Positions 5,316 to 60,428 of a DNA stretch of 64,000 nucleotides are shown piece after piece (within the stretch, counting starts at the first letter, position 1; every line of letters starts with the position of its first letter). Under the pieces are notes generated by a model, which made no database searches, was not told the origin of the DNA, and was given only the letters and a program-made list of their open reading frames with translations. Source of the DNA: Kiritimatiellia bacterium (GTDB lineage: Bacteria; Verrucomicrobiota; Kiritimatiellia; UBA8416; YA12-FULL-48-11). The stretch is from assembly GCA_028716365.1 (NCBI GenBank), contig JAQUPZ010000001.1:839393-903392 (forward strand), read 5' to 3'. A program made the translations under genes and the position numbers.

Positions 5316-6353
5316 ATGACGGAAAATCAGTGGAAGCAGTTGGTCAGGGTTGTTCAGGGAGAAGCTGTAAAACCATTGCCTGTCGGGTTCATAATTGACA
5401 GCCCGTGGCTGCCTGGCTGGTCGGGTATTTCAATTGTTGATTATTTTGCTTCTGAACAGATGTGGTTTGAAGCCAATCTCAAGGCCGTCAGGCGTTTTCC
5501 CGATGTTATTTTCCTGCCCGGGTTCTGGTCGGAATATGGCATGTGTACAGAGCCATCGGCATTTGGTTCGAAATGTGTATTTCACGAAAATGATCTTCCA
5601 TTTGCCGACAAAATAATCGAAACACCGCAACAGATGACATCACTCAGGAAACCTGATGTGAAGACGGACGGTTTACTTCCTTTTGCCCTGAAGCGGCTCC
5701 AGCACGCCCGAAAGGCAATTGAGAAAGAAGGACATGCAATCAAGTTTGCGGTGGCAAGGGGACCGCTGAATATTGCTTCGTTTTTGATGGGCGCGACTGA
5801 ATTCATGATCGCATTGAAAGAATCGCCGCAGGAAAGTCATGCCATGCTTAATACGATCACTGATTTTCTGTGTGACTGGATAAAGCTTCAAAAGGAAACT
5901 ATTCCATCGATTGAGGGTGTGTTCCTGCTGGATGATCTGGCAGGATTTCTGGGTGAGGAAGATTTCGTTGAATTTGCCACACCTTACCTGAAGAAATCAT
6001 TCAGTGCGGTTGATTCGAAAGTAAGGTTCTTTCATAACGATGCAGGCGGCTTGGTATGTGCGCCGCATCTTGCCGGTATTGGCGTTAACCTTTTTAATTT
6101 CAGTTTCCAGCATGGGATGAAAGAGATGCTTGATAAAACCGGCGGAAAGGTTTGCCTGCTGGGCAACATTCCGCCGCGTGACGTGCTGGCCAGCGGAAAG
6201 CCTGATGATGTGCGCAAGGGAGTCAAGGCGATGTTTGAAGGTGTTTCAGACCCGCGCAGAATCATTGCCTCATGCGGTGGCGGCATGTCGCAGAACACGC
6301 CGACGGAGAACATAGAGACATTTGTTGAAGCTGTCAGATTGTTGTCATTCTAA
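5316..6353 (+). CDS. Uroporphyrinogen-decarboxylase (URO-D)-like family protein
   Basis: The size is 345 aa and a GGAG SD lies upstream. Overall resemblance is to the URO-D/MtaA-like TIM-barrel family (weak, by eye). Confidence 0.4.
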   Translation: MTENQWKQLVRVVQGEAVKPLPVGFIIDSPWLPGWSGISIVDYFASEQMWFEANLKAVRRFPDVIFLPGFWSEYGMCTEPSAFGSKCVFHENDLPFADKIIETPQQMTSLRKPDVKTDGLLPFALKRLQHARKAIEKEGHAIKFAVARGPLNIASFLMGATEFMIALKESPQESHAMLNTITDFLCDWIKLQKETIPSIEGVFLLDDLAGFLGEEDFVEFATPYLKKSFSAVDSKVRFFHNDAGGLVCAPHLAGIGVNLFNFSFQHGMKEMLDKTGGKVCLLGNIPPRDVLASGKPDDVRKGVKAMFEGVSDPRRIIASCGGGMSQNTPTENIETFVEAVRLLSF

Positions 6354-15084: not shown

Positions 15085-17592
15085 ATGTTGAAGCAAATAG
15101 GGACAATATTATTCGCGATTGTTCTGTGTGCGTTTTCGATTCATGCCGCGGATACAACGAATGCGGCAGCAGTACCGAACTTTGACAGCCTGCGGATGGT
15201 GATTCAGGACCTGGGTTCGACATTTCCCCTTGAGTATGAAGGCGTGACATTGAGTAATGAATTCAAGGGGCTTGAAAGTGAATACCGGCATATTCAGAAT
15301 CAGGCAGATCGAGATGCTTTCGCGCAGAAGTACGAGGCATTTTCACGCAGGGTTTTACTGTCGAACCCGTTGTTAATAAAAAATCCGGTGCTGTTTGTGG
15401 TACGACGCCAGTACAAACCGGACCATCACAATACCGAAACCATGTTCCAGACCGGCGAAATAAATACGAAAAGTTTCCAGGGTGGCGGGGCATTGAAGGT
15501 CATCGATTTTAAAAAAGGCGGTGATGTCAGAACTTTGCTTGCTGTTGAAAAAGGTGTGATTCGCGATCCGGATGTGCATTTTGACGGCAGGAAAATTCTC
15601 TTCTCAATGCGAAAAGATATCGACGATAATTATCACATCTACGAAATAAACTCCGATGGTACTGGTTTGAGACAGATTACATCGGCGAAAGGCGTGTTCG
15701 ATATTGATCCGATTTATCTGCCTGACGAAAGCATTGTTTTCTCTTCATCCCGTGAACCGAAGTTTTGCATGTGTAACAGACATATCATGGGAAATCTATT
15801 CAGGATGGATTCCGATGGTGCCAACATTCACCAGATCAGCAAGAACACGCTGCATGACGGGCATGGCTGGCTGATGTCTGACGGAAGAATCATGTATGAC
15901 AGGTGGGAATACGTCGACAGGAACTTTGGCGATGCGCAGGGATTATGGACCGTGAATCCAGACGGGACACAGCACCTGATTTACTGGAAAAACAATACAG
16001 GCAGTCCGGGTGTGGCGCTTGATGGTCACGATATTCCGGAAACCCAGCAGCTGTTATGTGTTTTTTCGTCATGTCACGATCGTCCATGGGGAGCGCTGGC
16101 TCTGGTTGACAGAAGGCTGGGGTTGGATGGACGTCCGCCGGTTGTGCGTACATGGCCAGCTGATGCCGTTAATCTGATAAATGTCAATGGTAGCTTTGAT
16201 GCTTTTCGAAAAGTTAAATTAAAATTTGAAGATCCGTATCCTCTGAGCAGTAAGTATTTCATATGTTCCCGGATGACTGGAAAAGGCGAAGAGATGGGGC
16301 TTTACCTGGTTGATATTTTCGGCAACGAAATCCTTCTGCATGTTGAGGAACCGGCCTGTTTTGATCCGGTCCCGCTGGCGCCGCGTCACCGCCCGCCGGT
16401 CATTCCTTCGAAAAGGGATTACGAAAACAAGGAAGGCGTCCTTTTTGTACAAAACGTTTATCTCGGCACACACATGGAAGGAGTAAAACCCGATACAGTC
16501 AAGTTTCTCCGTGTAATCGAGTCGGGTGAAAAGAGATCATGGAGCCATCCATGCTGGTTTGGTCAGGGCGCGGAAGCGCCTGGTATGAACTGGCATGATT
16601 TTGGTAACAAGAAAATCCTTGGAACAGTTCCGGTGGAGGATGACGGGTCAGCATGTTTTTCCGTACCCAGCGACAGGTTTATTTTTTTCCAACTGTTGGA
16701 TAAAAATTACATGATGATCCAGTCGATGCGCAGCGGAATGGTTGTACAGTCCGGCGAGAGAACGGGTTGTATCGGATGTCACGATGAACGCCGCAGTGCG
16801 CCGCCACTGGCAAAGGCCGACACATTAAAGGCATTGAAAAGGGAACCAAGCAGATTGGAAGGATGGAACGGACCGCCTCGGTTCTTTAATTACATAACTG
16901 AGGTCCAGCCTGTTTTTGACAAGCATTGCGTCAGTTGCCATGATTTTGATAAGCCGGATGGAAAAGTCCTCAACCTGTCCCGTGACCGTGGAATGATTTT
17001 TAATGTTTCGTACCATGAATTATGGACCAAAAAACAGATCAAGGTTGTGGGTGCTGGTCCGGCGGAAATCCAGCAGGCATATTCCTGGGGATCACATGCA
17101 AGTCGATTAGTGGGAGTACTTGCCAAGGAACATGGAGAAGTGAAGTTAACCAGAGAAGAAAAAGACCGGATTATTACATGGGTTGATCTCAATGCACCGT
17201 ATTATCCGGAATTTGATACAAATTTTCCCAACAATCTTTATGGTCGTGCCCCGCTTAGTGGCCAGCAGGTAAAGCGTTTGTTTGAACTTACAGGTGTAAA
17301 TTGTGATGAAAGAAAACATGCCATGGATGTCTGTTTCGACAGACCAGAGGTCAGCCCCTGTCTTGACAAGTTTTCAGACAGAAATGATCCTGTTTATAAA
17401 GAGGCCCTGGCAATCATTGCGGAAGGAAAGAAAATCCTGACAGAAAATCCTTCCGCAGAAATGGCGAATTTCAAGCCCTGTGAGGATCATCAGAAACGAC
17501 AGGATAAATATACAGTACGTCTGGCAATCGAACAGCGTAACCGCGAAGCAATCCGCACCGGGAAAAAGTTGTACGACAAAGATATCAATTAG
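15085..17592 (+). CDS. Secreted PD40 beta-propeller di-heme (2x CXXCH) protein, HzsA-like family, paralog 2
   Basis: A signal peptide is present. It carries CIGCH and CVSCH. The family motifs are conserved (RWEYVDRNFGD, YLVDIFGNE, DPVPLAPRHRPP, TVPVEDDGSA, FFQLLDKNYMMIQSMRS, WVDLNAPYY). Confidence 0.8.
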   Translation: MLKQIGTILFAIVLCAFSIHAADTTNAAAVPNFDSLRMVIQDLGSTFPLEYEGVTLSNEFKGLESEYRHIQNQADRDAFAQKYEAFSRRVLLSNPLLIKNPVLFVVRRQYKPDHHNTETMFQTGEINTKSFQGGGALKVIDFKKGGDVRTLLAVEKGVIRDPDVHFDGRKILFSMRKDIDDNYHIYEINSDGTGLRQITSAKGVFDIDPIYLPDESIVFSSSREPKFCMCNRHIMGNLFRMDSDGANIHQISKNTLHDGHGWLMSDGRIMYDRWEYVDRNFGDAQGLWTVNPDGTQHLIYWKNNTGSPGVALDGHDIPETQQLLCVFSSCHDRPWGALALVDRRLGLDGRPPVVRTWPADAVNLINVNGSFDAFRKVKLKFEDPYPLSSKYFICSRMTGKGEEMGLYLVDIFGNEILLHVEEPACFDPVPLAPRHRPPVIPSKRDYENKEGVLFVQNVYLGTHMEGVKPDTVKFLRVIESGEKRSWSHPCWFGQGAEAPGMNWHDFGNKKILGTVPVEDDGSACFSVPSDRFIFFQLLDKNYMMIQSMRSGMVVQSGERTGCIGCHDERRSAPPLAKADTLKALKREPSRLEGWNGPPRFFNYITEVQPVFDKHCVSCHDFDKPDGKVLNLSRDRGMIFNVSYHELWTKKQIKVVGAGPAEIQQAYSWGSHASRLVGVLAKEHGEVKLTREEKDRIITWVDLNAPYYPEFDTNFPNNLYGRAPLSGQQVKRLFELTGVNCDERKHAMDVCFDRPEVSPCLDKFSDRNDPVYKEALAIIAEGKKILTENPSAEMANFKPCEDHQKRQDKYTVRLAIEQRNREAIRTGKKLYDKDIN

Positions 17593-19313: not shown

Positions 19314-19440
19314 GAAGGGTTTGTTCAAAAAAAGCATGGAATATAACTTTTCCGGAGATTCTTTCTGCTTTTCTATAATGCTTTGAAGAAGCTCCAATAA
19401 AATCTTGCTGCCAATCGTAACAGTGTTAGCATTTTGATAA

Positions 19441-19508
19441 TTAACCGGGACAAGAGCGCTGGAACCGGTGTTTCAGAATTGCTCCCCAAAAAAGCAATTT
19501 CTTGTAAC
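19441..19508 (+). promoter_or_regulatory. Conserved 68-bp leader element, copy 1 (contains palindrome AATTGCT-N9-AGCAATT at 19476-19498)
   Basis: It is about 94% identical to 22170..22237. It ends 20 nt before the ATG of the 19529 gene. An SD (AGGAG) follows it. Confidence 0.6.
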
Positions 19509-19528
19509 TTAACTTTAGGAGTCGTGAC

Positions 19529-21223
19529 ATGTTTCAGCAGCGATTCATTTGTGTGTGTATGATTTTCACCGTCTTGATTCCCATCGCAGTGTCCGCCGAT
19601 TTGAAAGTGTGGACACTCGCCCAAACGGAGCGTGTTCTCCGTGATACGTTACCGGGCGAGGGACTACCGGTCCATATCGCGGCAGCGAAGAATGAGTGGG
19701 AGAGTTTTCAAATTATCGTCCGTTCGGACAAGCCGGTAGGGGGGATCACCATCGAGGCTGGCAAACTCAGGGGGCCATGGTTTTCACACATTCGGGCAAG
19801 AGATGCCCGCCTCTTCCGACAGCACCAGATGGAACTCACAGTTCCCACGTACAGAAACAGTAGTTTCAAAGAGGGGTGGTATCCCGACGCCCTGATCCCG
19901 TTTTTTCATCCGGTCACCGGCGAGGCCTTGTTGAATGCGCGGCTCAAGGCCGTACCGTTCAACCTGCCCGCCAATGAAACGCATGGTTTCTGGGTAGATA
20001 TTTATGTCCCCAAAAACGCCAAAGCCGGCAAATACAAAGGAACGTATGTACTGCGAAGCTCTGTCAAGACGGTCAAAATTCCGGTCGCGCTGACGGTATG
20101 GGATTTCACGCTGCCGCGTGTGGCAACGATCAAGACCTCTCTTGGCTGGCCTCCGGATAGAATGCGCAGCTATTACAAGCAGCGGGCAAAAGACGGCAAG
20201 GAAGAAGAACCAAAAGACTGGGATGCCATCGAGACACAGTGCGCGGAGATGATGACGCAACACCACATCAATTGCTGGCCGCCCGTCCCCTGGATGACGC
20301 CCAAGGCGCAGTCGGATGGCTCGTTCAAGATTCCTTCAGAGAACATCGAGGCATATAGAAAGTTCGTTGATCAGTATCAGGTCAACGCTCTTCAGACGCC
20401 ACATCCCGGAAGTGTTGTCAAGGACCCGGATGCAGATAAGGAAAAATTACATGCCTGGCTCAAGGCATGGACCGACGCCGCGAAGGAACTGGATCGTACG
20501 AACATTGTCTTTTACACCTATCTCAGGGATGAACCAAACGACGAGGAAGCCTACAAGTATGTCCAGAAATGGGGACGGGCGATCTGCCCCGTGAAGTCGG
20601 CGCTCAAGGTGATGGTTGTTGAGCAGACGTGGACACAGGATGAGAAGTGGGGTGATCTCTATGGCGCCGTTGACATCTGGTGCCCGCTGTTCTCATTATT
20701 CAAGCCGGAAAGCGCGGCAAAACGCCAGGCGCTCGGTGAAACCATTTGGACCTATACTGCCCTCTGCCAGCGTGATCCGACACCCTGGTGGCACATTGAT
20801 TTTCCGCTCCTGAACTATCGCGTGTCGTCTTGGATCGCATGGCGCTATCGAATGCGCGGTATCCTCTACTGGGGTGGCATGTCGTACTGGCGGGGTGTGG
20901 ACGATCCGTGGACTGACCCGAAGACGCTTGATCGTCGCAAAAACGGCAAAGGTCCCAACTACAACGGCGAGGGCAGTCTTCTCTATCCGGCCCGTGCAGT
21001 CGGCTATGAGGGCGTTGCGCCCAGCCTGCGATTGAAGGCCCTGCGCGATTCATTCGAAGATTACGAGTATCTCTCCATCCTGGAGCGTGCCGGTCTGGCC
21101 GATCAAGCACAGGAGATTATCATGCCCCTCGCTGGTTCATGGTTTAAATGGGATAGTGATCCCGCGGCCTATGAAAAGGCACGGGCCAAGCTGGCCGAGA
21201 TGATCGTGAAGGCGAAAAAATGA
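19529..21223 (+). CDS. Secreted hypothetical protein (possibly DUF4091/GH123-like glycoside hydrolase)
   Basis: A signal peptide is present. The gene is high GC (about 58%). The family assignment is only a weak recollection. Confidence 0.45.
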   Translation: MFQQRFICVCMIFTVLIPIAVSADLKVWTLAQTERVLRDTLPGEGLPVHIAAAKNEWESFQIIVRSDKPVGGITIEAGKLRGPWFSHIRARDARLFRQHQMELTVPTYRNSSFKEGWYPDALIPFFHPVTGEALLNARLKAVPFNLPANETHGFWVDIYVPKNAKAGKYKGTYVLRSSVKTVKIPVALTVWDFTLPRVATIKTSLGWPPDRMRSYYKQRAKDGKEEEPKDWDAIETQCAEMMTQHHINCWPPVPWMTPKAQSDGSFKIPSENIEAYRKFVDQYQVNALQTPHPGSVVKDPDADKEKLHAWLKAWTDAAKELDRTNIVFYTYLRDEPNDEEAYKYVQKWGRAICPVKSALKVMVVEQTWTQDEKWGDLYGAVDIWCPLFSLFKPESAAKRQALGETIWTYTALCQRDPTPWWHIDFPLLNYRVSSWIAWRYRMRGILYWGGMSYWRGVDDPWTDPKTLDRRKNGKGPNYNGEGSLLYPARAVGYEGVAPSLRLKALRDSFEDYEYLSILERAGLADQAQEIIMPLAGSWFKWDSDPAAYEKARAKLAEMIVKAKK

Positions 21224-21731
21224 TATTGATCCCTTCTAACCCTGACTAAGAATGTCACGCTGGGAAATAGAATTTTGTCCTGATTTTGCCTAATCACTAT
21301 TTACGACTGATTAGCCCGGATATTTCTCAGAGCGGCCAAAGAAGCCGTAACCAAAGAGAGAAGTGGTGTGCATTTTGCAGGGAAGCCGATAAGCGTCTTT
21401 TGCACGCCGACTTTGTTGCTGCAAGCGGTGCAGATGCATATCTAGCCCCGCTTGCAGACGCCGTGTCGGCATCACAAAATCCACTTACCGTTTCCCTGTC
21501 CCCATGGATCCCCAAAATGCACACCACGGCCTGTCATCCGTATCCGTCGACCGACGGATACGGAACTTAAGAAATTTTCTCAGGAAAAGAAAAAAATACC
21601 GGATAATAGTATGAGTAAGAGATTGGCTCATGCATAAGCGCTTTTGCGACAATCACTTTACCGCACCGTAAAAGTTTCGACTGCGTGCTATTGCACTTTG
21701 CTCAAGATGACCCTTCGTCGCGTCGAAAGGT

Positions 21732-21827
21732 AAATCCTGCCTTCGTCCCGAGTTCCTCAGACCGAGAGGATCAAGTCCGTCGAAGAACGGACACGCCGAA
21801 GCCCTTCGGGCGGATATTGCAGGATTT
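21732..21827. ncRNA. Candidate structured RNA element: 9-bp closing stem (AAATCCTGC/GCAGGATTT) enclosing about 78 nt with three internal hairpins
   Basis: Inverted repeats are visible in the sequence. One hairpin has a UUCG-type loop (GCCC-TTCG-GGC). It lies in a 1-kb non-coding gap. Confidence 0.3.
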
Positions 21828-22169
21828 TGATACTATTACCCGTCAACATTTTCCTGTTTTGAGAAGATTTTCTGCCGCGATAAAGATTGTCTCTTGATTC
21901 CGGATCAATCCGCCGATCGGCGGATTGTGTAAACCGTGTCACGAATTTCTATTCTTCGGTGAAATATTTGATGTCAGATGCCGTTGCAGCACGGCAAAAG
22001 GATCGGCGCTGTATATGCATACGCGCCGCATCCTTTCAACACAGCTGCAACGAGCAGATCACATCACAAGATTTCACCGGAAATTCGTAACACTCTTTAA
22101 CTCTAAACAGCGGCGAAATCTGAAATAACTGCTTGTAGCAAGGCATAACCGTGATAGGATTTCCTTAAC

Positions 22170-22237
22170 TAACCGGGACAAGAGCGCTGGAATCGGTGTT
22201 TCAGAATTGCTCCCCAATAAAGCAATTTCTTATAAAC
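22170..22237 (+). promoter_or_regulatory. Conserved 68-bp leader element, copy 2
   Basis: It is near-identical to 19441..19508 and contains the same AATTGCT-N9-AGCAATT palindrome. It ends 18 nt before the ATG at 22256. Confidence 0.6.
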
Positions 22238-22255
22238 TCAACTGACAATACAATC

Positions 22256-23377
22256 ATGAACCAAATCCTTTGTCTCCGTCATAGTCGTACCCGTTCTGGC
22301 AGCTTTGTGCTGTGGGCGGCCATCGCATTCCTCGTAACAACATTGGCATCGGCTCCGCTTTTCGCGGCAGAGGGGCCGCTGGCGTTTTCCGTCGATAAGA
22401 AGACGCAGAGCTACACGATCTCCGAGCAGGGGAAACCGGTTTTGACCTATCGATTTGGCGAAGTTCCGCTTCCGGCAGGGGTCACGGCGCATCATTTTTC
22501 CAAGGGCAACACACCGTATAACGGTGCCTACTTTACCGACGGAAGCCAATTCGGCGGCGCACGGAGCGACTACATTTATCCGCTCTACGGTTTCAACGGT
22601 GAGACACTCACCGCCGACTACCCCAAAGATCATATGCATCACCGAAGTCTCTGGTGGAGCTGGTGCGAGGTTCGCATGAACGACAAGATCGGCGATATTT
22701 GGGCCGTATGCAAAATCCGCGCCTACCCGGTCGAAATCACCAAAATGGAAGCCAGTGCCGATTCCGCCTTTCTCCAGGCGGTGAACATCTGGAGGTATGA
22801 CGATAATCCGGCTGATATCGTGCAAGAGATCGTGACGATTCGTGCCTTCAAGACCGAAGGGATGCCGGGAGCGAGGAGCCGCGCGGTCGATGTTGATGTC
22901 AGGCTCGAGGCGTTGGTCGACGGCGTGGCCATTACCGGCCGCCAGAAAGTCGACTACGGCGGTTACGGCGGAATGACGGTCCGGATGAATCCGGACGTGA
23001 AAGAGTTTTCGATCCGCGCCGTTCATCCGAACCCGGACAAGTGGCGCGGCGACGATCTGAAGATTGTGGAACGGGTGACCGATCCGGCAAAGTTCGGCAA
23101 TGCCGCCTGGATGGCGCTTTACGGCAAGTACCCGGCCGCCGGGATCGAAACTCCCGGCTTCACGACCGTCATGATGTTTGAGTCAAAGGCTACGCCGCTC
23201 TTCCCCAACAATTTCCGCTATTATGGCTCGACCTGCATTTCATTGGCCTTTCCCGCGAAGACGATTGTCCCGCTCGCAAAGGGCAAGCCGCTCGACTACA
23301 AAACCCGCTTTGTGATTTGCGAGGGGAAAACGACCATTGATCGGGAAAAAGCGCTGTGGCATGCGTATCAGCACTAG
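22256..23377 (+). CDS. Secreted DUF6807 (PmoA-like) family protein
   Basis: A signal peptide is present. The family motif HMHHRSLWWS is present. I place the start at 22256 because the upstream GTG-initiated ORF runs through the conserved leader, which is non-coding in copy 1. Confidence 0.6.
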   Translation: MNQILCLRHSRTRSGSFVLWAAIAFLVTTLASAPLFAAEGPLAFSVDKKTQSYTISEQGKPVLTYRFGEVPLPAGVTAHHFSKGNTPYNGAYFTDGSQFGGARSDYIYPLYGFNGETLTADYPKDHMHHRSLWWSWCEVRMNDKIGDIWAVCKIRAYPVEITKMEASADSAFLQAVNIWRYDDNPADIVQEIVTIRAFKTEGMPGARSRAVDVDVRLEALVDGVAITGRQKVDYGGYGGMTVRMNPDVKEFSIRAVHPNPDKWRGDDLKIVERVTDPAKFGNAAWMALYGKYPAAGIETPGFTTVMMFESKATPLFPNNFRYYGSTCISLAFPAKTIVPLAKGKPLDYKTRFVICEGKTTIDREKALWHAYQH

Positions 23378-23600
23378 TGGTCCGTGGAGTTATCGTGCCG
23401 TCTGGGCGGACTTACGCAACGCGACGTGGATTGGCATTACGTATGCTGAATGGGTCAGCCAGGCAATAGGGTATTGACGCGTGGAGTGTTGATGCAATAG
23501 ATTGCGGACATGGCAACGCAAACATGGTTATGGTTTATGCCAATGTTAAAAATCAATTTCTTATAACATTTAATATGCCATTGGGAGTTTAATCTGTATC

Positions 23601-25136
23601 ATGAACAGGATCTTTTGTACCCGCTATTTTCGAGGTCGATCTGACAGCATCATTTTGTGGATAGCCATAGTATTTCTTGTGACAATATTGGCACCGGCCG
23701 AGCTGTACGCCGGCCGCAACTTGATTCGCCGGGAGAACAAAAAAGCAGGTACGTCGGATTGGCAATTGACATATGTTCGTCTCGACAAGGCAGATCGTAC
23801 TGGTACCCGTTCTCCCGGTATTGAAGGCTACTGCTCGCGACAATCGGTTGCCGCCGGGGAATCGATCGAATTCTTTGTCAGCACTGAGCCGGCGTGCAAC
23901 TTCACCCTGGAGATCTTTCGGATGGGCTACTACGGAGGTTTGGGTGCCCGGCTGATGAAAACGTTGGGGCCTTTGACCGGCAAGACGCAGGCCCTGCCGC
24001 CGGTCGGTCCCCGGCGAATCCGCGAGTGCCGCTGGGAGTCCAGCGCCAAGTTGCTGATCCCGGCCGATTGGCCAAGCGGCGTCTACTTGGGTCGGCTGTC
24101 CCGAGTGCCAAATCCCGACGGTACGATGCCCTGGCAGAGCTACGTGGTGTTCATTGTTAAGGATGACCGTCCAGCCGACATTCTCTTACAGTGTCCCGAC
24201 AACACTTGGCAAGCCTACAACCGTTGGCCCGACGAATATTCGCTGTACATCGACCCGGGGAACAAATTTGCCTGGTGTAACACCAACGTCGATGTCAGCT
24301 TCAACCGGCCCTACGGCAAATACGTGCAGATTTACGAGAACCCGCAGTCCGTCGGTTCAGGCGAATTCCTGTGCTTTGAGTTTCCATTGTGTTATTGGCT
24401 GGAACAAAACGGATATGATGTCAGTTATTGCTCCAACAGCGACATGCTCACACCGGACCGCGCAGCAAAGTGCAAGGCCTTTATCAGCGTGGGACACGAC
24501 GAATACTGGGATCTGCGCCAGTATGAGAGCGTACTGAAGATTTCGCGCAGCGGTACCTGCGTGTTGTTCCTGTCGGGTAACTCCATTTGCTATGTGACGC
24601 CGTTCCGCCCGGGGCCCGATGGTTGTCCCAATCGGATTATTTCCCGCAAAGGCCCATATCAGGGGCTGACCATGGGTGCGGAACCGCCAACGAACAAGTT
24701 TGAATACGTGGGACCGGATGAAGGTCTATTGCTCGGTGCCCGCAATATCCTGCCTGTTAACGGCGGAGGCGACTGGGTCTGTACCAAACCGGAACACTGG
24801 ATATTTGCCGGCACGGGGATGAAAAAAGGCGACAGGATTCGCGGACTGGTAGGCTGGGAATTCCATGGCGATCCCCCGCCAATCAAGGGCTTGGAGGTGG
24901 TGGCCGAGGGCATTGCTTTGCACGGTGGTACGCGTCCCGTTCCATACCAGGCCACGATCTACCCCACTGAGAAAGGTGGTTTTGTTTTCAACGCCTCGAC
25001 CATCTTCTGGTCCACGGGCTTGAGTACTCCGCCAGGGCACATGCCACTGTGGAGCCATAACACGCGGCCCAACGGTCCAGACCCGCGAGTACAGCAGATC
25101 ACACACAACCTGCTGCGGCGTGCCATTAAGCGGTAG
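23601..25136 (+). CDS. Secreted hypothetical protein, possibly N,N-dimethylformamidase large-subunit-like (DmfA2-type) domain
   Basis: Its N-terminal 40 aa are homologous to the N-terminus of the 22256 protein. A TWQAYN motif is present. The family call is weak. Confidence 0.4.
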   Translation: MNRIFCTRYFRGRSDSIILWIAIVFLVTILAPAELYAGRNLIRRENKKAGTSDWQLTYVRLDKADRTGTRSPGIEGYCSRQSVAAGESIEFFVSTEPACNFTLEIFRMGYYGGLGARLMKTLGPLTGKTQALPPVGPRRIRECRWESSAKLLIPADWPSGVYLGRLSRVPNPDGTMPWQSYVVFIVKDDRPADILLQCPDNTWQAYNRWPDEYSLYIDPGNKFAWCNTNVDVSFNRPYGKYVQIYENPQSVGSGEFLCFEFPLCYWLEQNGYDVSYCSNSDMLTPDRAAKCKAFISVGHDEYWDLRQYESVLKISRSGTCVLFLSGNSICYVTPFRPGPDGCPNRIISRKGPYQGLTMGAEPPTNKFEYVGPDEGLLLGARNILPVNGGGDWVCTKPEHWIFAGTGMKKGDRIRGLVGWEFHGDPPPIKGLEVVAEGIALHGGTRPVPYQATIYPTEKGGFVFNASTIFWSTGLSTPPGHMPLWSHNTRPNGPDPRVQQITHNLLRRAIKR

Positions 25137-30488: not shown

Positions 30489-31475
30489 ATGAAGAGACAT
30501 GTTCCATCGTCATTCCGGAAAAAAATGATAGCAGCAGTTTTCGGGCTTTTATTGTTATTGGTGTTTGCAGTACGGGAAGCTGGCGCTGAGGTCAAGGTTA
30601 CCGAGACGGGTGACAAGGTAAAAGTTGAAATCAACGGCAAACTGTTTACAGAATATAATTATAAAGAAGTACAGCGTCCTTTCTTTTATCCGCTTATAGG
30701 ACCGACCGATTGTAACGTAACCAGAAATTTCCCCATGAAGGAAGTTCCAGATGAAGAAAGGGACCATCCGCATCACAAATCACTCTGGTTTACCCATGGT
30801 AATGTCAGCGGGACAAATTTCTGGGCCGACAGCACAGGAAAAGTGATTCATGGGAAAGTAGTTCATGACAAGTTCCTCGAGATATCGTCTGGTAAAGACG
30901 TTGGTGTTATTAAAAGCCAGAACAATTGGGTGGCACCTGACGGGAAAATCGTGTGTTCCGATACCCGAACTCACAGGTTTTATAACAGGGCTGGATGTTG
31001 TGTCATGGATTTCGAGGTAACTATTCATGCTTCCAATGGTGAAATAGTGTTTCACGACACCAAGGAGGGCTCGATGGCGATACGCATGGCACCAACCATG
31101 GCAGTGAAAGGTAAGGTAGCCAAGGGGCATATTGTTAACAGCCTTGGTGATCGCGATGCTGCGGCCTGGGGTAAAAAGGCGGAATGGTGTGATTATTACG
31201 GTCCGCTGGAAGGACAGGTTGTTGGTGTGGCGATGTTTGATCATCCTTCCAATCCGCGGCATCCCACGTGGTGGCATGTGCGTGACTACGGTCTGTTTGC
31301 TGCGAATCCATTCGGTCAGCATGATTTTGAAAAGAAACCTGCCGGTGTCGGCAATCTGAAAATAGCCGCCGGTGAAAACGTGACCTTCCGTTATCGTGTT
31401 TATATTCATAAGGGTGACGAAAAGGCAGGCCAGGTAGACGCGCAATACCGTGAGTACATTAAAGAAGTGAAATAG
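30489..31475 (+). CDS. Secreted DUF6807 (PmoA-like) family protein, second paralog
   Basis: A signal peptide is present. The motif HPHHKSLWFTHG matches HHRSLWW in the 22256 protein. Confidence 0.6.
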   Translation: MKRHVPSSFRKKMIAAVFGLLLLLVFAVREAGAEVKVTETGDKVKVEINGKLFTEYNYKEVQRPFFYPLIGPTDCNVTRNFPMKEVPDEERDHPHHKSLWFTHGNVSGTNFWADSTGKVIHGKVVHDKFLEISSGKDVGVIKSQNNWVAPDGKIVCSDTRTHRFYNRAGCCVMDFEVTIHASNGEIVFHDTKEGSMAIRMAPTMAVKGKVAKGHIVNSLGDRDAAAWGKKAEWCDYYGPLEGQVVGVAMFDHPSNPRHPTWWHVRDYGLFAANPFGQHDFEKKPAGVGNLKIAAGENVTFRYRVYIHKGDEKAGQVDAQYREYIKEVK

Positions 31476-40028: not shown

Positions 40029-40808
40029 ATGAGACCCGTAAATATGATCCGGTACTTTCTAACCGTACTGATTGTTGTGGTCCTCGTGTCGATTGACTTG
40101 GGGATATCTGCTCCGGCTTTATCCGGTAAAGCTAAAATACTGGTTCTTACCGGTAACGAGTATCCCGGGCATAAATGGCGTGAAACTGCTCCATTAATTG
40201 CTAAGTTTCTTGCGACTGATTCACGGCTGACGGCTGAGGTCAATAATGACCCGCAGTTTCTTGCTTCTCCACAGTTACACGAGTATGACGCAATCGTACT
40301 CAACTATCTTAACTGGAAGTGCCCTGATCCCGGTGAAAAGGCCCGCGCGAACTTAAAGAAATTTGTAGAAGGTGGAAAAGGGCTTGTGATTGTGCATAAT
40401 GCGTGTGCTGCTTTCGGGGAATGGCCAGAGTTCAAGGAAATTGCCGGTCGCGCATGGAACCCGAATCGTGTACACGGCCATGATCCTAATGGATCGTTTC
40501 AGGTCGAAATTACAAATGTAGATCATCCGATCACGAAGGGAATGAAGTCATTTGTGACAACGGATGAACTGTACACCTGCCTTTTGACCAATGGTCCTCC
40601 GGTCGAGGTTCTGGCCAAGGCCATGTCGAAAGTCGAAAAGAAGGATCATCCGATGGTCATTGTAAATCATTACGGGAAAGGGCGCGTGTTTCTCTGCGTT
40701 TTGGGGCATGACGTGGCGGCTCTCAGCGTTGAAGCTGTACAGGAACTTTATCGACGCGGGACTGCCTGGACTGCTAGATTGTCGCCTGATAATGGAGAGG
40801 TATATTGA
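40029..40808 (+). CDS. Secreted ThuA family protein
   Basis: A signal peptide is present. ThuA-like blocks are present (KILVLTGNEYPGHKW, YDAIVLNY, GKGLVIVHNA). Confidence 0.65.
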   Translation: MRPVNMIRYFLTVLIVVVLVSIDLGISAPALSGKAKILVLTGNEYPGHKWRETAPLIAKFLATDSRLTAEVNNDPQFLASPQLHEYDAIVLNYLNWKCPDPGEKARANLKKFVEGGKGLVIVHNACAAFGEWPEFKEIAGRAWNPNRVHGHDPNGSFQVEITNVDHPITKGMKSFVTTDELYTCLLTNGPPVEVLAKAMSKVEKKDHPMVIVNHYGKGRVFLCVLGHDVAALSVEAVQELYRRGTAWTARLSPDNGEVY

Positions 40809-41364
40809 GGTGGAAGAGAAAGAACTCATAATCAAGTCCCAGCAGGGCGATATTGATGCCTTTTCCGGACTGGTCAAACTGTATCAGGGAAATATTCGCG
40901 CGTGTCTTGCTGTACGCCTTACTAATACCTTTGAAGCTGACGATCTGGCCCAGGAGACGTTCATTGTGGCTTTCCGTAAGATAAATGACTTTGATTCTAC
41001 CCGTCCATTTGGCCCATGGCTGAGATCGATAGCGTTCAACCTGCTCCGCAATTTCTGGCACAAGCATAAAGCGGAACCCGTTGGCCATTCAGAGGAACTT
41101 GCCCTGCTGGTGGACGAGCACATTGCCCTGAATTATTCGGAGCGGAATGAACTGAATGCACTTAATACCCTGCGTGAATGCATGAAGAAACTCGACGAGT
41201 CGATGCGCAGGCTCGTTGAATTGCGTTACCATGAGAATCTCCCGCTGGCTGATCTTATGAAGAAGCTGAATATAAATCATTCCACTCTGACCATGCGCCT
41301 TCACCGTGTAAGGTTTTCGCTGAAGCAGTGCGTGGAGACCAATCTCGAAGGTGTTTCTTCATGA
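40792..41364 (+). CDS. ECF-type RNA polymerase sigma-70 factor
   Basis: Sigma region 2 (DDLAQETFIVAF) and region 4 (LRYHENLPLADLMKKLN) are present. The gene overlaps the next gene by ATGA. Confidence 0.8.
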   Translation: MERYIEVEEKELIIKSQQGDIDAFSGLVKLYQGNIRACLAVRLTNTFEADDLAQETFIVAFRKINDFDSTRPFGPWLRSIAFNLLRNFWHKHKAEPVGHSEELALLVDEHIALNYSERNELNALNTLRECMKKLDESMRRLVELRYHENLPLADLMKKLNINHSTLTMRLHRVRFSLKQCVETNLEGVSS

Positions 41365-42956
41365 ATGAAAATCACGAAAAAATGATAGCTGAATTCATGA
41401 GCGGTGAAGGCTCCGGCAGGGAACTGCTTGAGCTGTGCCGTAAGGACAAGGCCCTTCTGAATGAGCTGGCTGAACTGACCGTGATGGAAAGACTGTTATC
41501 TCACCAGGCACAGGATTCGAGTTCCGAGCTTTTTGCCGCGGAAGTCAGAGCTATCCTGTCGCGCGGGGAAGAATCTGATTCTTTCGTGTTCGGGGTTCGG
41601 GACAGGCTTGCAAAAGAAAACCAAACGTTACCGGTAAGCAGGCTTTTCTGGTTGCCAAATATGTTGAAGCTGGCCGCGGCTGCGCTGATTGTTTTTTCAA
41701 TGTCCTATTGGATATATGTAAACCGCCCTGTTGCAGTCCTGGCAAATTCTGCTGCTGCCGACTGGACCGACAAAACCATAGGAATTGAGCAGGTATTCAA
41801 GCGCGGCATAGTTGATCTCAAAGCGGGTTGTGCGGAACTTAAGTTCCGGAATAATGTGATAGTTCTCCTCGAAGGGCCAGCCAGGCTCAGGATCAAATCG
41901 GCCGATCACGTGGTTTTGTATCAAGGCAACCTTGTGGCTGACGTACCGAAAAATGCAATCGGGTTTCGGGTGGACACGCCCACTTCCGAGGTGATTGATC
42001 TTGGCACAGTGTTTGGAGTTTCGGTTGACCAGAAGGGTGTTTCAGAGATTCATGTGATCAAGGGTAAAGTCAAGGCCAGGAAGAATGGAAATCAGTCCTT
42101 TGTTGATTTGACGGAGAACGAAGCCCGGTCTTTCAGCAGGGATGAGAATTTGGCCAGGATTATTGAGAGCAATATGGACAAGTTTCTAAGGGTGTTACCC
42201 GGTAAATCCGGGCGTAATCCGGCATATCTGCACTGGTCTTTCGATGAAGGACAGGGAACAGAGGCCGGTGAGAACCATGTCGGAAACAATACAACAAACT
42301 ATCCGGCACGTCTTAAGTCGCTCAAGGAAGATGGTGAAATTCCTGAATGGAACAATGGTCAGTTCGGCAACGCGCTTTATTTCAATGGAAGTACTGCATA
42401 TGCGGTCACCGATTATCCCGGCATAGGTGCAAATCATCCGCGAACGGTGGCGTTTTGGGTTAAAGTTCCCAAGCCTGATTCAATGACGCCTGTCTACGGA
42501 TTGGTAAGCTGGGGATCCATGGCGGATATTGGAAGCGCGTGGCAAATCTCCATCAATCCGACTGAAAAGGAAGGACCTCTGGGACGGTTAAGAATGGGTA
42601 CAAAACAAGCACAGGCAATCGGTACTACAGATCTTCGCGATAATCGCTGGCACCATATTGCCGTCGTGATGTATGGCGGAGAAACGGCTGATGTTTCAAC
42701 CCATATTTTGCTGTACATTGATGGCAAACTTGAAAAAACTTCCAGGAAATCCATTCACCGTATTTTTACGGATATCGAGAGCGGACTTGCGGTAACTGTC
42801 ATGTTCGGACGGGATATGGGGCATCCTCTTGATGACAGTAAGTTTTCGTATAACCTGTTCAAGGGCTGGCTGGATGAAGTCTATATTTTTGAAGCGGCTC
42901 TTTCACGTGAGCAGGTGGAATCGCTCATGAAAAATAACAGGGTGCCATCGGGGTGA
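41361..42956 (+). CDS. FecR-type anti-sigma factor with C-terminal LamG/concanavalin-like domain
   Basis: The start ATG overlaps the sigma stop (ATGA). It has an N-terminal anti-sigma region, one TM helix, a FecR domain (GFRVDTPTSEVIDLGTVFGVSVD) and a C-terminal LamG-like domain. Confidence 0.75.
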   Translation: MNENHEKMIAEFMSGEGSGRELLELCRKDKALLNELAELTVMERLLSHQAQDSSSELFAAEVRAILSRGEESDSFVFGVRDRLAKENQTLPVSRLFWLPNMLKLAAAALIVFSMSYWIYVNRPVAVLANSAAADWTDKTIGIEQVFKRGIVDLKAGCAELKFRNNVIVLLEGPARLRIKSADHVVLYQGNLVADVPKNAIGFRVDTPTSEVIDLGTVFGVSVDQKGVSEIHVIKGKVKARKNGNQSFVDLTENEARSFSRDENLARIIESNMDKFLRVLPGKSGRNPAYLHWSFDEGQGTEAGENHVGNNTTNYPARLKSLKEDGEIPEWNNGQFGNALYFNGSTAYAVTDYPGIGANHPRTVAFWVKVPKPDSMTPVYGLVSWGSMADIGSAWQISINPTEKEGPLGRLRMGTKQAQAIGTTDLRDNRWHHIAVVMYGGETADVSTHILLYIDGKLEKTSRKSIHRIFTDIESGLAVTVMFGRDMGHPLDDSKFSYNLFKGWLDEVYIFEAALSREQVESLMKNNRVPSG

Positions 42957-51220: not shown

Positions 51221-51399
51221 CTTCCTTTTTACGTTGAAGATTTGGTAGGGCGGCGAGTCCCTTCGCCGCCGTCCGGAAAGAAGATGGCGCTCAACGGAGT
51301 GAACGCCCTACCTTTAGAAGATAGAGAAATCTGGCATTTCGCAGACATTCTGTCTTATATTGCCAATCTAAATAGCGTCATTGAATAGGAGATTTAAAC

Positions 51400-52269: not shown

Positions 52270-52329
52270 AGTTTTCAAACCTAAAAGCGTCGCGAATTGG
52301 TCAAAACAGATCACGTGTGAACTTACCCC

Positions 52330-52510
52330 GTCTCCTTCGTTACTGAAGTCCTCGGATACCGAGAGTATCCCTTGGACTTCAGATGCCTTGGAGCCATGAC
52401 AAGTTGACGCGTTCCTGTTTTAGTCCGACGTCCGTCGGCTGACGGACGATGGGCAACACCAATTCGCGCCACGTTTACCCCGCCATGCCGAACGCATGGC
52501 GGAATAAGAG
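52330..52510. terminator. Cluster of GC-rich perfect stem-loops in convergent intergenic region
   Basis: Three stem-loops are visible: GAAGTCC...GGACTTC (52346-52380), CGTCCGTC-ggct-GACGGACG (52429-52448) and CCGCCATGC-cgaac-GCATGGCGG (52480-52502). No clean U-run follows any of them. Confidence 0.4.
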
Positions 52511-55295: not shown

Positions 55296-55304
55296 GTCAA
55301 ACTT

Positions 55305-59474: not shown

Positions 59475-60313
59475 GATGCCATCTCCATTTTTTCGTTTTG
59501 ACTGTCGTTATGGTTCAACCCGTAGCCTAACCTTCTGGAGATTTCGGCGGTATACTTTTTCATGAGCGTGCCGATGCGGGGAAAAGCGGAGATGGGCATC
59601 CGTTCTGCTGGACCTGTTGTCGTTATGGCCGCGACTGGATACCCCTGGTAATTTAGCACAGGCGTGGCAACACAATGCACTCCGTGCAGCGCTTCGGCAC
59701 GGTCGACAGCGTAACCGTTACAACGTGCCATTGCCAGTTCGTTTATGAAATCTTTACGACAGGTGATTGTCGTGGCGGTCATGCGTTTGAACGAAATTCC
59801 TTTAATAATGTCTTCTCGTTCTTTTGCCGGAAGAAATGCGAAAATAATTTTCGTGGAGGCAGAGGCGTAGATGACGGGTTGACGCGTGCCGGGATCGCAT
59901 ACAAAACGAAATGGATGAAGTCCCTGGACCTGTTCCAGAACGATACCTTCGCCGCGGTCAAAAATACTGATAACGACGGTTTCTGTGATCATGTCCCGGA
60001 GACGGCGCATAACATCCAGGGAGGACTCCATCAAAGTACGGTCCTGGGCAGAGCCGTAAGCGAAGGTGACCATTTTCCTGCTCAGCAGGTAACGAAGGGA
60101 GTCGGTGTCACGTGTTATATATTCGTGTACGCTTAAGGTGTTGAGAATTCGATATACCGTGTTTTTAGGAAAGTGGAGTTCTCGTGCGATTTCGCTGAGG
60201 GTAAGTCCCTGAGGATGAAGGCGAAGATGGTCGAGAATGGTCAGTGTGCGATGAAGTATCGGTACTCCGGTCCCTCCTTTTCCCGCGGGAGATTTCTTTG
60301 TGGCTGGTTTCAT
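59471..60313 (-). CDS. IclR family transcriptional regulator
   Basis: An N-terminal wHTH is present (LTLSEIARELHFPKNTVYRILNTL) with an IclR effector domain. A strong SD (AGGTGG) lies 4 nt before the ATG at 60313. Confidence 0.8.
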   Translation of the reverse strand: MKPATKKSPAGKGGTGVPILHRTLTILDHLRLHPQGLTLSEIARELHFPKNTVYRILNTLSVHEYITRDTDSLRYLLSRKMVTFAYGSAQDRTLMESSLDVMRRLRDMITETVVISIFDRGEGIVLEQVQGLHPFRFVCDPGTRQPVIYASASTKIIFAFLPAKEREDIIKGISFKRMTATTITCRKDFINELAMARCNGYAVDRAEALHGVHCVATPVLNYQGYPVAAITTTGPAERMPISAFPRIGTLMKKYTAEISRRLGYGLNHNDSQNEKMEMAS

Positions 60314-60396
60314 AGGTCCACCTTGTTCCTTAGATGGTCTAATGTTCCTGTATTGGTACGATAATTCTGGTGCCAGGTCAACCAAAATTATTGAAT

Positions 60397-60428
60397 AAAA
60401 AAAGGGCCCTCGATTGAGGGCCCTTGTT
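60397..60428 (-). terminator. Rho-independent terminator of the permease gene
   Basis: The stem is GGGCCCTC-gatt-GAGGGCCC. On the minus strand it is followed by a 7-nt U-run. It lies 23 nt downstream of the minus-strand stop codon at 60446. Confidence 0.7.

What the first reader, a model, noticed from the sequence alone, without database searches (positions are those of the whole stretch)
21224..22169. About 1 kb of non-coding DNA dense with perfect palindromes and a closed multi-hairpin element
The gap between the 19529 gene and the 22256 gene has no convincing ORF. It contains several strong inverted repeats: a 10-bp repeat with a 19-nt spacer (CTGCAAGCGG...CCGCTTGCAG, 21419-21457); a 28-bp palindrome (TCCGTATCCGTCG ac CGACGGATACGGA, 21537-21564); a 22-bp perfect palindrome (CAATCCGCCGATCGGCGGATTG, 21905-21926); and a 96-nt unit closed by a 9-bp stem (21732-21827) enclosing three hairpins, one with a UUCG-type loop. 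This density is atypical for a plain intergenic spacer. Possible explanations are a structured ncRNA or riboswitch-like leader, a cluster of regulator binding sites, or a decayed mobile element or MITE.
Basis: seen in the sequence. Interest (0 to 1): 0.55.

Follow-up and report, generated by a model that had tools for sequence, protein, structure and literature searches.

The report
Two dispersed hairpin repeats, tail-to-tail
The 1-kb gap holds two facing copies of a hairpin-forming repeat that also sits next to unrelated genes in related bacteria, so it is lineage-specific repeat DNA, not a riboswitch or a control region for the next gene.

Summary
The gap contains two composite modules. Each is a long imperfect hairpin of 165-170 nt, then a short linker, a short perfect GC-rich hairpin and a CGGAA..AAGA tail.

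- **Module A+B** (21309-21572, + strand) folds far better than shuffled sequence (z -10.7).
- **Module E+D** (22099-21885, - strand) also does (z -8.1). It faces A+B tail-to-tail.

Nothing matches Rfam. A+B has three DNA homologs in a metagenome (75-80% identity) beside unrelated genes. Its stems are kept by 11 compensatory pairs and its apex varies by insertions and deletions. E+D has a 91-100% identical partial copy, fused to an A-type left arm, in a Lentisphaerae MAG. A third module lies at 52282-52509.

Close homologs of both flanking genes sit in other contexts without this DNA. No transposase, recombinase or reverse transcriptase was found among the window proteins scanned. Canonical terminators exist elsewhere in this genome.

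Best reading: a new repeat family, seen so far in three PVC-related sources, of the MITE / ERIC / REPIN kind. How it spreads and what it does are unresolved. Interest is moderate to low.

The parts
21309..21362 (+). 5' leader of the A-type repeat, unpaired and upstream of the long hairpin
   Evidence: Window 21309-21388 is 82.5% identical to L134 5191-5270, which starts 6 nt after an unrelated gene's stop codon. L133 aligns more weakly. The sister-strain contigs L131, L135 and L136 stop at about 21325.
21363..21527 (+). Long imperfect hairpin A (165 nt, 62 pairs).
   Evidence: z = -10.7 on + and -9.6 on -. Homologs exist in L132, L133 and L134. Covariance model R1 scores 61.9 bits. Eleven pairs changed on both sides, against 4.2+-1.5 in shuffles. 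The apex varies by insertions and deletions and is absent in L132.
21528..21536 (+). Conserved 9-nt linker (GGCCTGTCA)
   Evidence: Aligned in all four A-type copies as GGCYTGYCW.
21537..21564 (+). Short perfect hairpin B (13+2+13)
   Evidence: It is 28/28 identical to L132 on the opposite strand (its centre is not symmetric). The stem base TCCGTATCC/GGATACGGA is invariant in the four copies, and the tip varies. R1 scores 31.3 bits.
21561..21572 (+). Tail motif CGGAACTTAAGA. Homology among A-type copies ends here.
   Evidence: The motif CGGAA-N1-5-AAGA occurs 9 times in the window against 3.15 expected. Four of the nine follow GC-rich hairpins in intergenic DNA.
21573..21884 (.). Central spacer with no assigned feature.
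   Evidence: z = -1.3. No significant homolog in any fetched locus or collection searched; one weak match to L134 (71% over 77 nt, E 0.005) is not counted. No Rfam hit.
21885..21905 (-). Tail of the E-type repeat (on the - strand: GATCCGGAATCAAGAGACAATC)
   Evidence: Window 21885-21929 is 91% identical to L053 2497-2453. The motif CGGAATCAAGA lies at 21892-21902 on the - strand.
21906..21927 (-). Short perfect palindrome D (11+11)
   Evidence: It is 22/22 identical in L053. It shares the core ATCCGYCG-NN-CGRCGGAT with B.
21930..22099 (-). Long imperfect hairpin E (170 nt). Its sense strand is taken as minus by collinearity with A+B and with L053.
   Evidence: z = -8.1 on + and -8.9 on - for 21900-22130. 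The arm 21937-21987 is 96% identical to L053 2397-2347. The apex is similar to the apex of A in reverse complement (1 of 300 shuffles). The modules are collinear (3 of 1000 shuffles).
22124..22235 (+). Promoter or leader segment duplicated from upstream of the GH123 gene (copy of 19396-19510). It is not part of the hairpin repeats.
   Evidence: 62 nt at 97% and 98 nt at 88% identity. The motif CAATTTCTTRTAA lies before three consecutive gene starts.
52282..52509 (+). Third module of the same architecture, outside the finding: long hairpin 52282-52477, short hairpin 52480-52502, tail CGGAATAAGA.
   Evidence: z = -7.4. Its 3' foot, AATTCGCGCCACGTTTA, resembles E's AATTCGTGACACGGTTTA. Tail motif. 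It begins 13 nt after a co-oriented gene, between convergent genes.

Best explanation
The gap is long and structure-rich because it has collected two copies, tail-to-tail, of a dispersed composite hairpin repeat found so far in three PVC-related sources: a Kiritimatiellia MAG, a Lentisphaerae MAG and one metagenome. It also carries a duplicated promoter/leader segment.

Each repeat has the layout [short leader] - [long imperfect hairpin, about 110-220 nt, with an apex prone to insertions and deletions] - [about 9-nt linker] - [short perfect GC-rich hairpin] - [CGGAA..AAGA tail].

Shown:
- The A-type and E-type modules are repeat families present beside unrelated genes in other assemblies.
- The arms stay complementary through paired substitutions.
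- Copies differ by apex deletions and insertions.
- One copy is a chimera of the two subtypes.
- No transposase, recombinase or reverse transcriptase was found among the 27 window proteins scanned.

Inferred:
- The repeats are non-autonomous elements spread in trans. This could be by a transposase that recognises the inverted arms, or by an enzyme that recognises single-stranded hairpins, as for REPIN/RAYT or IS200/IS605 derivatives.
- Once inserted just after a gene, they are co-transcribed and fold into large 3' stem-loops. These could dampen read-through or protect the mRNA 3' end.

Rough likelihoods: dispersed repeat family about 0.9; mobile in trans about 0.55; an RNA-level 3'-end role about 0.3.
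For: - **Structure is real.** z = -10.7 and -8.1 for the two modules. They are the top outliers in a 64-kb sliding MFE scan.
- **A-type copies elsewhere.** Translating the open frame across A+B and searching metagenome contigs found three DNA homologs in assembly JAEAMF01 (L132, L133, L134). Pairwise identity among the four copies is 75-90%.
- **Unrelated neighbours.** These copies are flanked by a glycosyltransferase and a nucleotidyltransferase, an epimerase and gyrA, and MTTB.
- **Kept complementarity.** 95.8% of cells are paired. 11 pairs changed on both sides against 4.2+-1.5 in shuffles (0 of 500), and at most 1 in slid controls.
- **E-type copy elsewhere.** L053 (Lentisphaerae bacterium RIFOXYA12_FULL_48_11) starts 32 nt after an unrelated co-oriented gene. 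It carries an A-type left arm (86.5%), fused to the E right arm (96%), a 48-nt insert, palindrome D (22/22) and the tail (91%).
- **Shared architecture.** A+B and the reverse complement of D+E are collinear (3 of 1000 shuffles), with similar apex and 3' foot. A third module at 52282-52509 has the same layout and tail.
- **Not locus-specific.** Homologs of both flanking genes lie in other contexts without this DNA.
- **Assemblies break here.** L003 ends at 21450, the apex of A. Three JGI contigs of a 95% sister strain all stop at about 21325, the start of the repeat.
- **Position.** Five of seven modules lie 6-140 nt downstream of a co-oriented gene, and three of seven lie between convergent genes.
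Against: - Only five copies outside the gap are known. The copy number in the host genome could not be measured.
- No terminal inverted repeat at the true ends, no target-site duplication and no empty site could be defined.
- No partner transposase was found.
- The covariance model built from A-type copies does not recognise E or the third module beyond the short hairpin (E-values 0.1-0.5). The superfamily link therefore rests on weak sequence similarity, shared layout and the L053 chimera.
- The L053 copy does not form the long hairpin (z = -2.4).
- The co-orientation count of 5 of 7 is not significant (binomial p about 0.23).
- Paired substitutions are equally expected for an RNA structure, for a single-stranded DNA hairpin, or for subfamilies whose two arms must both match their own transposase.
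- Strand asymmetry of G-U pairs is inconsistent between modules.
Confidence: 0.6

Rival explanations
1. A multi-copy structured small-RNA gene family. Each module would be an independently transcribed ncRNA: a long hairpin, with the short GC-rich hairpin acting as its terminator.
For: The stems are kept by compensatory changes, and the unpaired bulge and linker are conserved. The 3' end is sharp, just after the short hairpin. Among A-type copies there are more G-U pairs than A-C mismatches on the + strand, 11 against 5 (counted).
Against: - No Rfam match.
- No sigma-70-like promoter on the + strand in 21100-22400, and no conserved promoter-like motif in the leaders.
- The short hairpins lack a U tract, although this genome has canonical hairpin-plus-U terminators.
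- The apex can be deleted or replaced (L132, L133, L134).
- The L053 copy has lost the hairpin.
- Both strands fold about equally well.
Confidence: 0.2
2. Operator sites. Palindromes B and D (ATCCGYCG-NN-CGRCGGAT, centres 366 bp apart) would bind a dimeric regulator and loop the DNA to control the DUF6807 gene or the GH123 gene.
For: The two exact matches to the 18-bp core are the only ones in 64 kb, and both lie in this gap. An IclR regulator and an ECF sigma/anti-sigma pair are encoded in the window.
Against: - In the A-type family only the stem base is invariant. The ATCCGYCG core is lost in L134 and its spacing changes in L133.
- B and D travel with their long hairpins to unrelated loci.
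- Perfect 11-13-bp arms are longer than usual operators.
- The 18-mer occurs as scattered single hits across many phyla, roughly as chance predicts.
- DUF6807 homologs elsewhere lack it.
Confidence: 0.07
3. An invertible DNA switch. A and E would be the inverted repeats of an inverton that flips the 400-bp B-C-D segment upstream of the DUF6807 gene.
For: A and E are in inverted orientation and weakly similar. L053 shows an A-left / E-right junction at a shared CTTTTGC motif, which is what a crossover between the two would produce.
Against: - A and E are only about 45% identical, far below known inverton repeats.
- L053 is a different locus in another genome and lacks the rest of the segment.
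- No recombinase among the 27 window proteins scanned.
- Two assemblies of the host strain cover the whole gap in the same orientation, and a third contig agrees as far as it reaches.
Confidence: 0.03
4. A locus-specific riboswitch or leader for the DUF6807 gene, or a 3' regulatory element specific to the GH123 gene.
For: The gap lies between the two genes. The region is highly structured.
Against: - No Rfam hit.
- The module next to the DUF6807 gene is on the opposite strand and is separated from the start codon by a duplicated promoter-like segment.
- Homologous genes elsewhere have unrelated upstream and downstream DNA.
- The same element sits beside unrelated genes.
Confidence: 0.02

Closest known systems
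ERIC / IRU (enterobacterial repetitive intergenic consensus) elements
   Same: Imperfect palindromes of 100 nt or more in intergenic DNA near gene ends, in either orientation. Size variants arise by internal insertion or deletion. Hairpin potential is kept. No linked transposase. They occur across related species. (ERIC properties are from general knowledge, not tested here.)
   Different: No sequence similarity: no match in 5,426 E. coli genomes. The modules here are longer and composite, with an extra short hairpin and tail. The host belongs to the PVC group. Copy number is unknown.
MITEs (for example Correia, RUP and Nezha-type foldback MITEs)
   Same: Non-coding and dispersed. The two arms are inverted repeats that fold into a long hairpin. 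Internal segments vary, as in deletion derivatives. Chimeric copies exist. E and the third module are bracketed by TA...TA.
   Different: Family homology extends beyond the inverted arms, to the leader on the 5' side and to the linker, short hairpin and tail on the 3' side. The inverted repeats are therefore not terminal. No target-site duplication is defined for A. No cognate IS was found.
REP / REPIN / BIME elements mobilised by RAYT transposases (PMC3733652)
   Same: Short GC-rich stem-loops in intergenic DNA. Inverted pairs form larger hairpins. Mosaic clusters are often tail-to-tail or head-to-head. REPs have been reported in PVC bacteria. Proposed roles include termination and mRNA stabilisation.
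   Different: B and D have no unpaired GTAG or CGTC head (sequence inspection). The long-hairpin arms are not themselves REP palindromes. Density is low, at 3-4 modules in about 80 kb. No Y1 transposase gene is in the window.
IS200/IS605-derived palindrome-associated elements (PATEs)
   Same: Asymmetric non-coding elements whose ends are marked by hairpins rather than terminal inverted repeats. The 3' boundary is sharp, a few nt after a hairpin.
   Different: No TnpA or TnpB gene nearby. The left and right hairpins of a single unit were not identified. No omega-RNA or related Rfam family matches.
Integron attC sites
   Same: An imperfect palindrome just downstream of a co-oriented ORF. Structure is conserved more than sequence. 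The apex is of variable length.
   Different: No RYYYAAC / GTTRRRY boxes at the hairpin feet. The two sites in the gap are inverted, not arrayed. No integrase. Neighbours include core genes such as gyrA.

Membership tests
Any Rfam 15 RNA family (riboswitch, sRNA, intron, omega-RNA and others) | Covariance-model score at or above the family's gathering threshold | tested here: not met
   No matches in the whole window at gathering scores. In the permissive scan of 21100-22350, five hits scored 16-24 bits against thresholds of 57-110: four miRNA-precursor models and one snoRNA model.
MITE (TIR-type) | Inverted repeats at the very termini of the repeated unit | tested here: not met
   Homology among A-type copies continues about 55 nt upstream of the left arm. 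It also continues about 45 nt downstream of the right arm, through the linker, B and the tail.
MITE (TIR-type) | Target-site duplication flanking each copy | tested here: inconclusive
   E and the third module start and end with TA, but A does not. The ends of the unit are not defined, and no empty site is available.
MITE (TIR-type) | Several dispersed copies in unrelated contexts | tested here: met
   L132, L133, L134 and L053 plus three modules in the window.
MITE (TIR-type) | A cognate autonomous IS with matching ends | not testable with these tools
   No transposase among 27 window proteins scanned with Pfam. The rest of the genome could not be read.
REP / REPIN (RAYT-associated) | A 20-40-nt stem-loop with an unpaired GTAG or CGTC head (PMC3733652) | tested here: not met
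   The flanks of B (GGCCTGTCA| ... |ACTTAAG) and of D (GGATCAAT... / ...ATTGTGTA) carry no such unpaired tag. CGTC occurs only inside B's stem.
REP / REPIN (RAYT-associated) | High copy number, and a RAYT gene flanked by the repeats | not testable with these tools
Only 3-4 modules were seen in about 80 kb. No Y1_Tnp domain in the window.
ERIC / IRU | Sequence match to the ERIC consensus | tested here: not met
   No blastn match in 5,426 complete E. coli genomes.
Integron attC | R'' RYYYAAC and R' GTTRRRY boxes at the outer ends; co-oriented arrays; intI or a CALIN context | tested here: not met
   The hairpin feet are GTGGTG.../...CACCAC for A and TAAACCG.../...CTCTTTA for E. The two sites are inverted. 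No integrase in the window.
Intrinsic (Rho-independent) terminator | A GC-rich hairpin followed directly by a U tract | tested here: not met
   No such site on the + strand in 21100-22400. Canonical examples exist elsewhere in the same genome, at 60402-60425 on the - strand and at L137 9787-9830.
Inverton (phase-variable invertible promoter) | Near-identical inverted repeats flanking the segment, a nearby recombinase, and both orientations present in the population | tested here: not met
   A against the reverse complement of E is about 45% identical. No recombinase found. The assemblies that cover the region agree in orientation.

The most novel reading that the evidence does not exclude
These modules would be a previously undescribed class of PVC-lineage mobile element. 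It would spread as a single-stranded hairpin, without terminal inverted repeats or a linked transposase. Subtypes would recombine with each other. Hosts would co-opt it as a bidirectional 3'-end insulator around horizontally acquired genes. In the gap, the two facing copies sit just downstream of a GH123 gene and upstream of a DUF6807 gene, both with foreign GC content.
Probability: 0.15. Interest if true: 0.6.

Novelty: new variant of a known kind. Interest (0 to 1): 0.35.

Why it matters
- Kiritimatiellota and Lentisphaerota are poorly studied, and no repeat families of this type were found for them in Rfam or in the two literature searches run here.
- A defined, structure-conserving repeat gives a marker for strain typing. 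It also explains recurrent assembly breaks in MAGs of this lineage.
- The family is a candidate 3'-end or insulator element.
- For genome scanning, the lesson is that a "riboswitch-like" structured gap can be recognised as repeat DNA once a single homolog at an unrelated locus is found.
- None of this changes a major question in the field.

Tried and rejected
- **Rfam.** Gathering and permissive scans found nothing.
- **Synteny.** Five loci with DUF6807 homologs (81-87% aa) and two with GH123 homologs (76% aa) have different contexts and no similar intergenic DNA. Orthologous covariation analysis was therefore impossible.
- **Genome-wide scan.** The scan was salvaged only because one hit, L053, proved to be a true homolog.
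- **Protein databases.** A 752-aa concatenate of nine of the twelve open frames (42 aa or more) across the gap found no hit at E <= 10. The 99-aa frame against 1.84 billion representatives gave one spurious hit.
- **Viral contigs.** One pseudo-protein search and two DNA-pattern searches found nothing.
- **Plasmids, phages and E. coli genomes.** No match.
- **Covariance model R1.** The model was built from A-type cores. It does not recover E or the third module beyond the short hairpin.
- **Direct A / E / third-module alignments.** Only weak similarity was found.
- **A second inverted copy downstream of the L134 element.** Not supported (z = -1.8).
- **Extra flanking genome.** About 16 kb more (L137, L140) held no further module, only a canonical terminator.
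- **Accession search in papers.** Nothing found.
- **Rejected on features:** retron (no reverse transcriptase), group II intron fragment (no Rfam hit, and B lacks the AGC triad and bulge of domain V), attC, CRISPR, tRNA or tmRNA, and a coding gene (apex indels break the frame, and there are no protein homologs).
Full report
**1. Setting**

The window comes from a Kiritimatiellia MAG. The source names for the two flanking proteins say so. A near-identical 26-kb contig is JAQTVT010000035.1 of GCA_028706615.1.

The gap 21224-22255 lies between two + strand genes. Upstream is a GH123/DUF4091-type glycoside hydrolase gene (19529-21223). Downstream is a DUF6807 (PmoA-like) gene (22256-23377). It is the longest non-coding stretch in the window.

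**2. Checking the observation**

Palindrome D is off by one base, at 21906-21927. Their weight differs from what was reported:

- The 96-nt "closed" unit (21732-21827) folds no better than shuffled sequence. z = -1.3, and 20 of 200 shuffles fold as well.
- The 10-bp repeat at 21419-21457 is the tip of a 165-nt imperfect hairpin, A (21363-21527).
- A second hairpin of 170 nt, E, lies at 21930-22099.

| Stretch | z, + strand | z, - strand |
|---|---|---|
| A with palindrome B | -10.7 | -9.6 |
| Palindrome D with E | -8.1 | -8.9 |

A 200-nt sliding fold of all 64 kb, corrected for GC content, puts these two at the top on both strands. A third hairpin at 52282-52477 follows.

B and D share the 18-bp core ATCCGYCG-NN-CGRCGGAT, which occurs exactly only at these two places in the window.

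No open frame exceeds 99 aa. A concatenate of nine of the twelve open frames of 42 aa or more finds no protein relative.

**3. Anatomy**

The gap holds two modules of the same layout, facing each other tail-to-tail. Each is a long hairpin, a linker of 2-9 nt, a short perfect hairpin and a CGGAA-N-AAGA tail.

- A to B reads on the + strand.
- E to D reads on the - strand.

The orientation assignment rests on three results:

- A+B and the reverse complement of D+E are collinear (3 of 1000 shuffles).
- Their apex sequences are similar: GCGGTGCAGATGCATATCTAGCCCCG against GCGGCGCGTATGCATATACAGCGCCG.
- Their 3' feet are similar.

About 310 nt between the two tails (21573-21884) has no assigned feature.

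The last 110 nt before the DUF6807 start (22124-22235) is a copy of the segment upstream of the GH123 gene (19396-19510).

**4. Not a known RNA and not locus-specific**

Rfam 15 gives nothing at gathering scores. The permissive scan gives only weak hits, all far below threshold and mostly to miRNA-precursor models.

Close DUF6807 homologs (81-87% aa, mostly Planctomycetota) and GH123 homologs (76% aa) sit in entirely different neighbourhoods. Their flanks share no DNA similarity with the gap. A leader, riboswitch or operator tied to either gene is therefore not supported.

**5. The A-type module is a dispersed repeat**

I translated the open frame that happens to span A+B and used it as a query against metagenome contigs. 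This returned three DNA homologs in assembly JAEAMF01:

- L133 740-991: 73% identical by BLAST.
- L134 5191-5499: 81-82% identical by BLAST.
- L132 5985-6118: 85-86% identical by BLAST. Its apex is deleted, and B is 28/28 identical to the reverse strand.

Over the alignment, pairwise identity among the four copies is 75-90%.

Their neighbours are unrelated to one another and to the window. They are a GT4/WecG glycosyltransferase with a nucleotidyltransferase, a sugar epimerase with gyrA, and an MTTB methyltransferase.

What is conserved:

- The 5' foot (GTGGTGTGCATTTTGCRGGGAAGCCG).
- The whole 3' arm, including an unpaired bulge.
- The linker.
- The base of hairpin B.
- The sequence up to ACGGAA, where homology stops.

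The apex differs by large insertions and deletions.

On the four-sequence alignment, 95.8% of cells pair. Eleven pairs changed on both sides, against 4.2+-1.5 in shuffles (0 of 500) and at most 1 when partners are slid. Complementarity of the arms is therefore maintained.

This fits three readings equally: an RNA structure, a single-stranded DNA hairpin, or subfamilies whose two arms must both match one transposase. Both strands fold about equally well, and G-U asymmetry is inconsistent between modules.

**6. The E-type module is also dispersed**

One hit from an otherwise uninformative genome-wide 18-mer scan was a true homolog. It is L053, from Lentisphaerae bacterium RIFOXYA12_FULL_48_11 (48% GC in the strain name, close to the window's 48.8%).

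L053 starts 32 nt after an unrelated 655-aa gene. In order, it carries:

- an A-type left arm (86.5%),
- the right arm of E (96%), joined directly at a shared CTTTTGC..CGGCATC stretch,
- a 48-nt insert,
- palindrome D (22/22),
- the tail (91%).

This has three consequences:

- E+D travels to other loci and genomes.
- The A-type and E-type modules are related enough to recombine.
- The long hairpin can be lost: L053 gives z = -2.4.

The third window module (52282-52509) has an E-like 3' foot and the same tail. A covariance model built from A-type cores recognises only A+B in the window (61.9 and 31.3 bits). It touches D and the third module only through the short hairpin (E-values 0.1-0.5). The superfamily link is therefore supported but not proven.

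**7. Supporting context**

- Short-read assemblies break at these sequences. A Logan contig ends at 21450, the apex of A. Three JGI contigs of a 95%-identical sister strain all stop at about 21325, where the repeat begins.
- Five of seven modules lie 6-140 nt after a co-oriented gene, and three lie between convergent genes. With seven cases this is not significant (p about 0.23).
- The genome has ordinary hairpin-plus-U terminators elsewhere, but none lies between the GH123 and DUF6807 genes. The modules are the only strong structures that a read-through transcript would meet there.
- None of the 27 window proteins scanned with Pfam is a transposase, recombinase, integrase or reverse transcriptase.

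**8. Interpretation**

The best-supported account is that the gap is a small mosaic of lineage-specific, non-coding, hairpin-forming repeats plus a duplicated promoter/leader piece.

I rate "dispersed repeat family" at about 0.9. I rate "non-autonomous element mobilised in trans" at about 0.55, with the mechanism open between arm-binding transposition and hairpin-recognising HUH-type enzymes. I rate "acts as a 3' stem-loop or insulator when co-transcribed" at about 0.3.

Rivals:

| Rival | Confidence |
|---|---|
| Multi-copy sRNA gene family | 0.2 |
| Operator pair | 0.07 |
| Inverton | 0.03 |
| Gene-specific leader | 0.02 |

**9. Comparison with known kinds**

The modules work most like ERIC/IRU elements, foldback MITEs and REP/REPIN/BIME mosaics. 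They fail each family's defining tests:

- no ERIC sequence,
- inverted repeats not terminal,
- no GTAG or CGTC tag (PMC3733652),
- no attC boxes,
- no U tract.

I therefore file them as a new variant of the known kind "dispersed intergenic hairpin repeats".

**10. Limits**

- The host genome beyond about 80 kb could not be read, so copy number, ends and any partner enzyme are unknown.
- The E-type evidence rests on one external locus.
- No expression data exist.

Noticed in passing
window 22124-22235 and 19396-19510; also 23554-23566: The roughly 110 nt upstream of the DUF6807 start is a copy of the segment upstream of the GH123 start (62 nt at 97%, 98 nt at 88%). The motif CAATTTCTTRTAA lies 10-22 nt before the start codons of three consecutive genes. 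This may be a shared promoter or leader placed in front of each gene.
   Followed up: partly
window 19529-25136: A GC island of 55-57% lies between flanks of 41-47%. Its DUF6807 protein is 81-87% identical to proteins whose named relatives are mostly Planctomycetota, although the host is a Kiritimatiellia MAG. This suggests recent horizontal acquisition of these genes.
   Followed up: partly
window 52282-52509: A third long-hairpin module (z = -7.4) with an inner B-like hairpin (52430-52447). A short hairpin (52480-52502) and a CGGAATAAGA tail follow. It lies between convergent genes, 13 nt after the Peptidase_M55 gene.
   Followed up: partly
window 51244-51312: Two abutting GC-rich hairpins are separated by CGGAAAGAAGA. 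On the minus strand this reads as a hairpin plus a pyrimidine-rich tail, which looks like a bidirectional terminator. It lies in the 790-bp gap before the gene at 51400.
   Followed up: no
L012 about 470-660 and L119 about 2440-2600 (Victivallaceae MAG CAZWRV01): A multi-hairpin repeat of about 135 nt carries the same 18-bp palindrome, ATCCGCCGNTCGGCGGAT, about 20 nt upstream of an AGGAG ribosome-binding site. It is present on two contigs of one genome. This is another PVC repeat family that shares the short palindrome.
   Followed up: partly
L006 / L007 about 5790-5880: An 80-nt near-perfect hairpin (GTCATCCTGAGCGTAGCGAAGGATC...) lies upstream of the DUF6807 homolog in two other MAGs (about 60% GC). 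It is a different palindromic repeat in the equivalent position.
   Followed up: no
L131, L135, L136 (JGI 3300040800, 3300033109, 3300031262): Contigs of a 95%-identical sister strain from three metagenomes all begin at window 19607 and end at about 21325. L135 and L136 lack 20177-20284 of the GH123 gene. The sister strain also lacks window 21229-21280.
   Followed up: partly
window 60402-60425 (-) and L137 9787-9830: Canonical intrinsic terminators (a GC-rich stem plus a T run; the L137 one is bidirectional) occur in this genome. The lineage therefore does use ordinary terminators.
   Followed up: no
window 30489-31475; 15085-17592; 52566-59474: A second DUF6807 paralog and several large proteins with an HZS_alpha middle domain lie among sulfatase and CAZyme-type genes. 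The window looks like a polysaccharide-degradation neighbourhood with an ECF sigma / FecR pair (40708-42956) and an IclR regulator (59471-60385).
   Followed up: no
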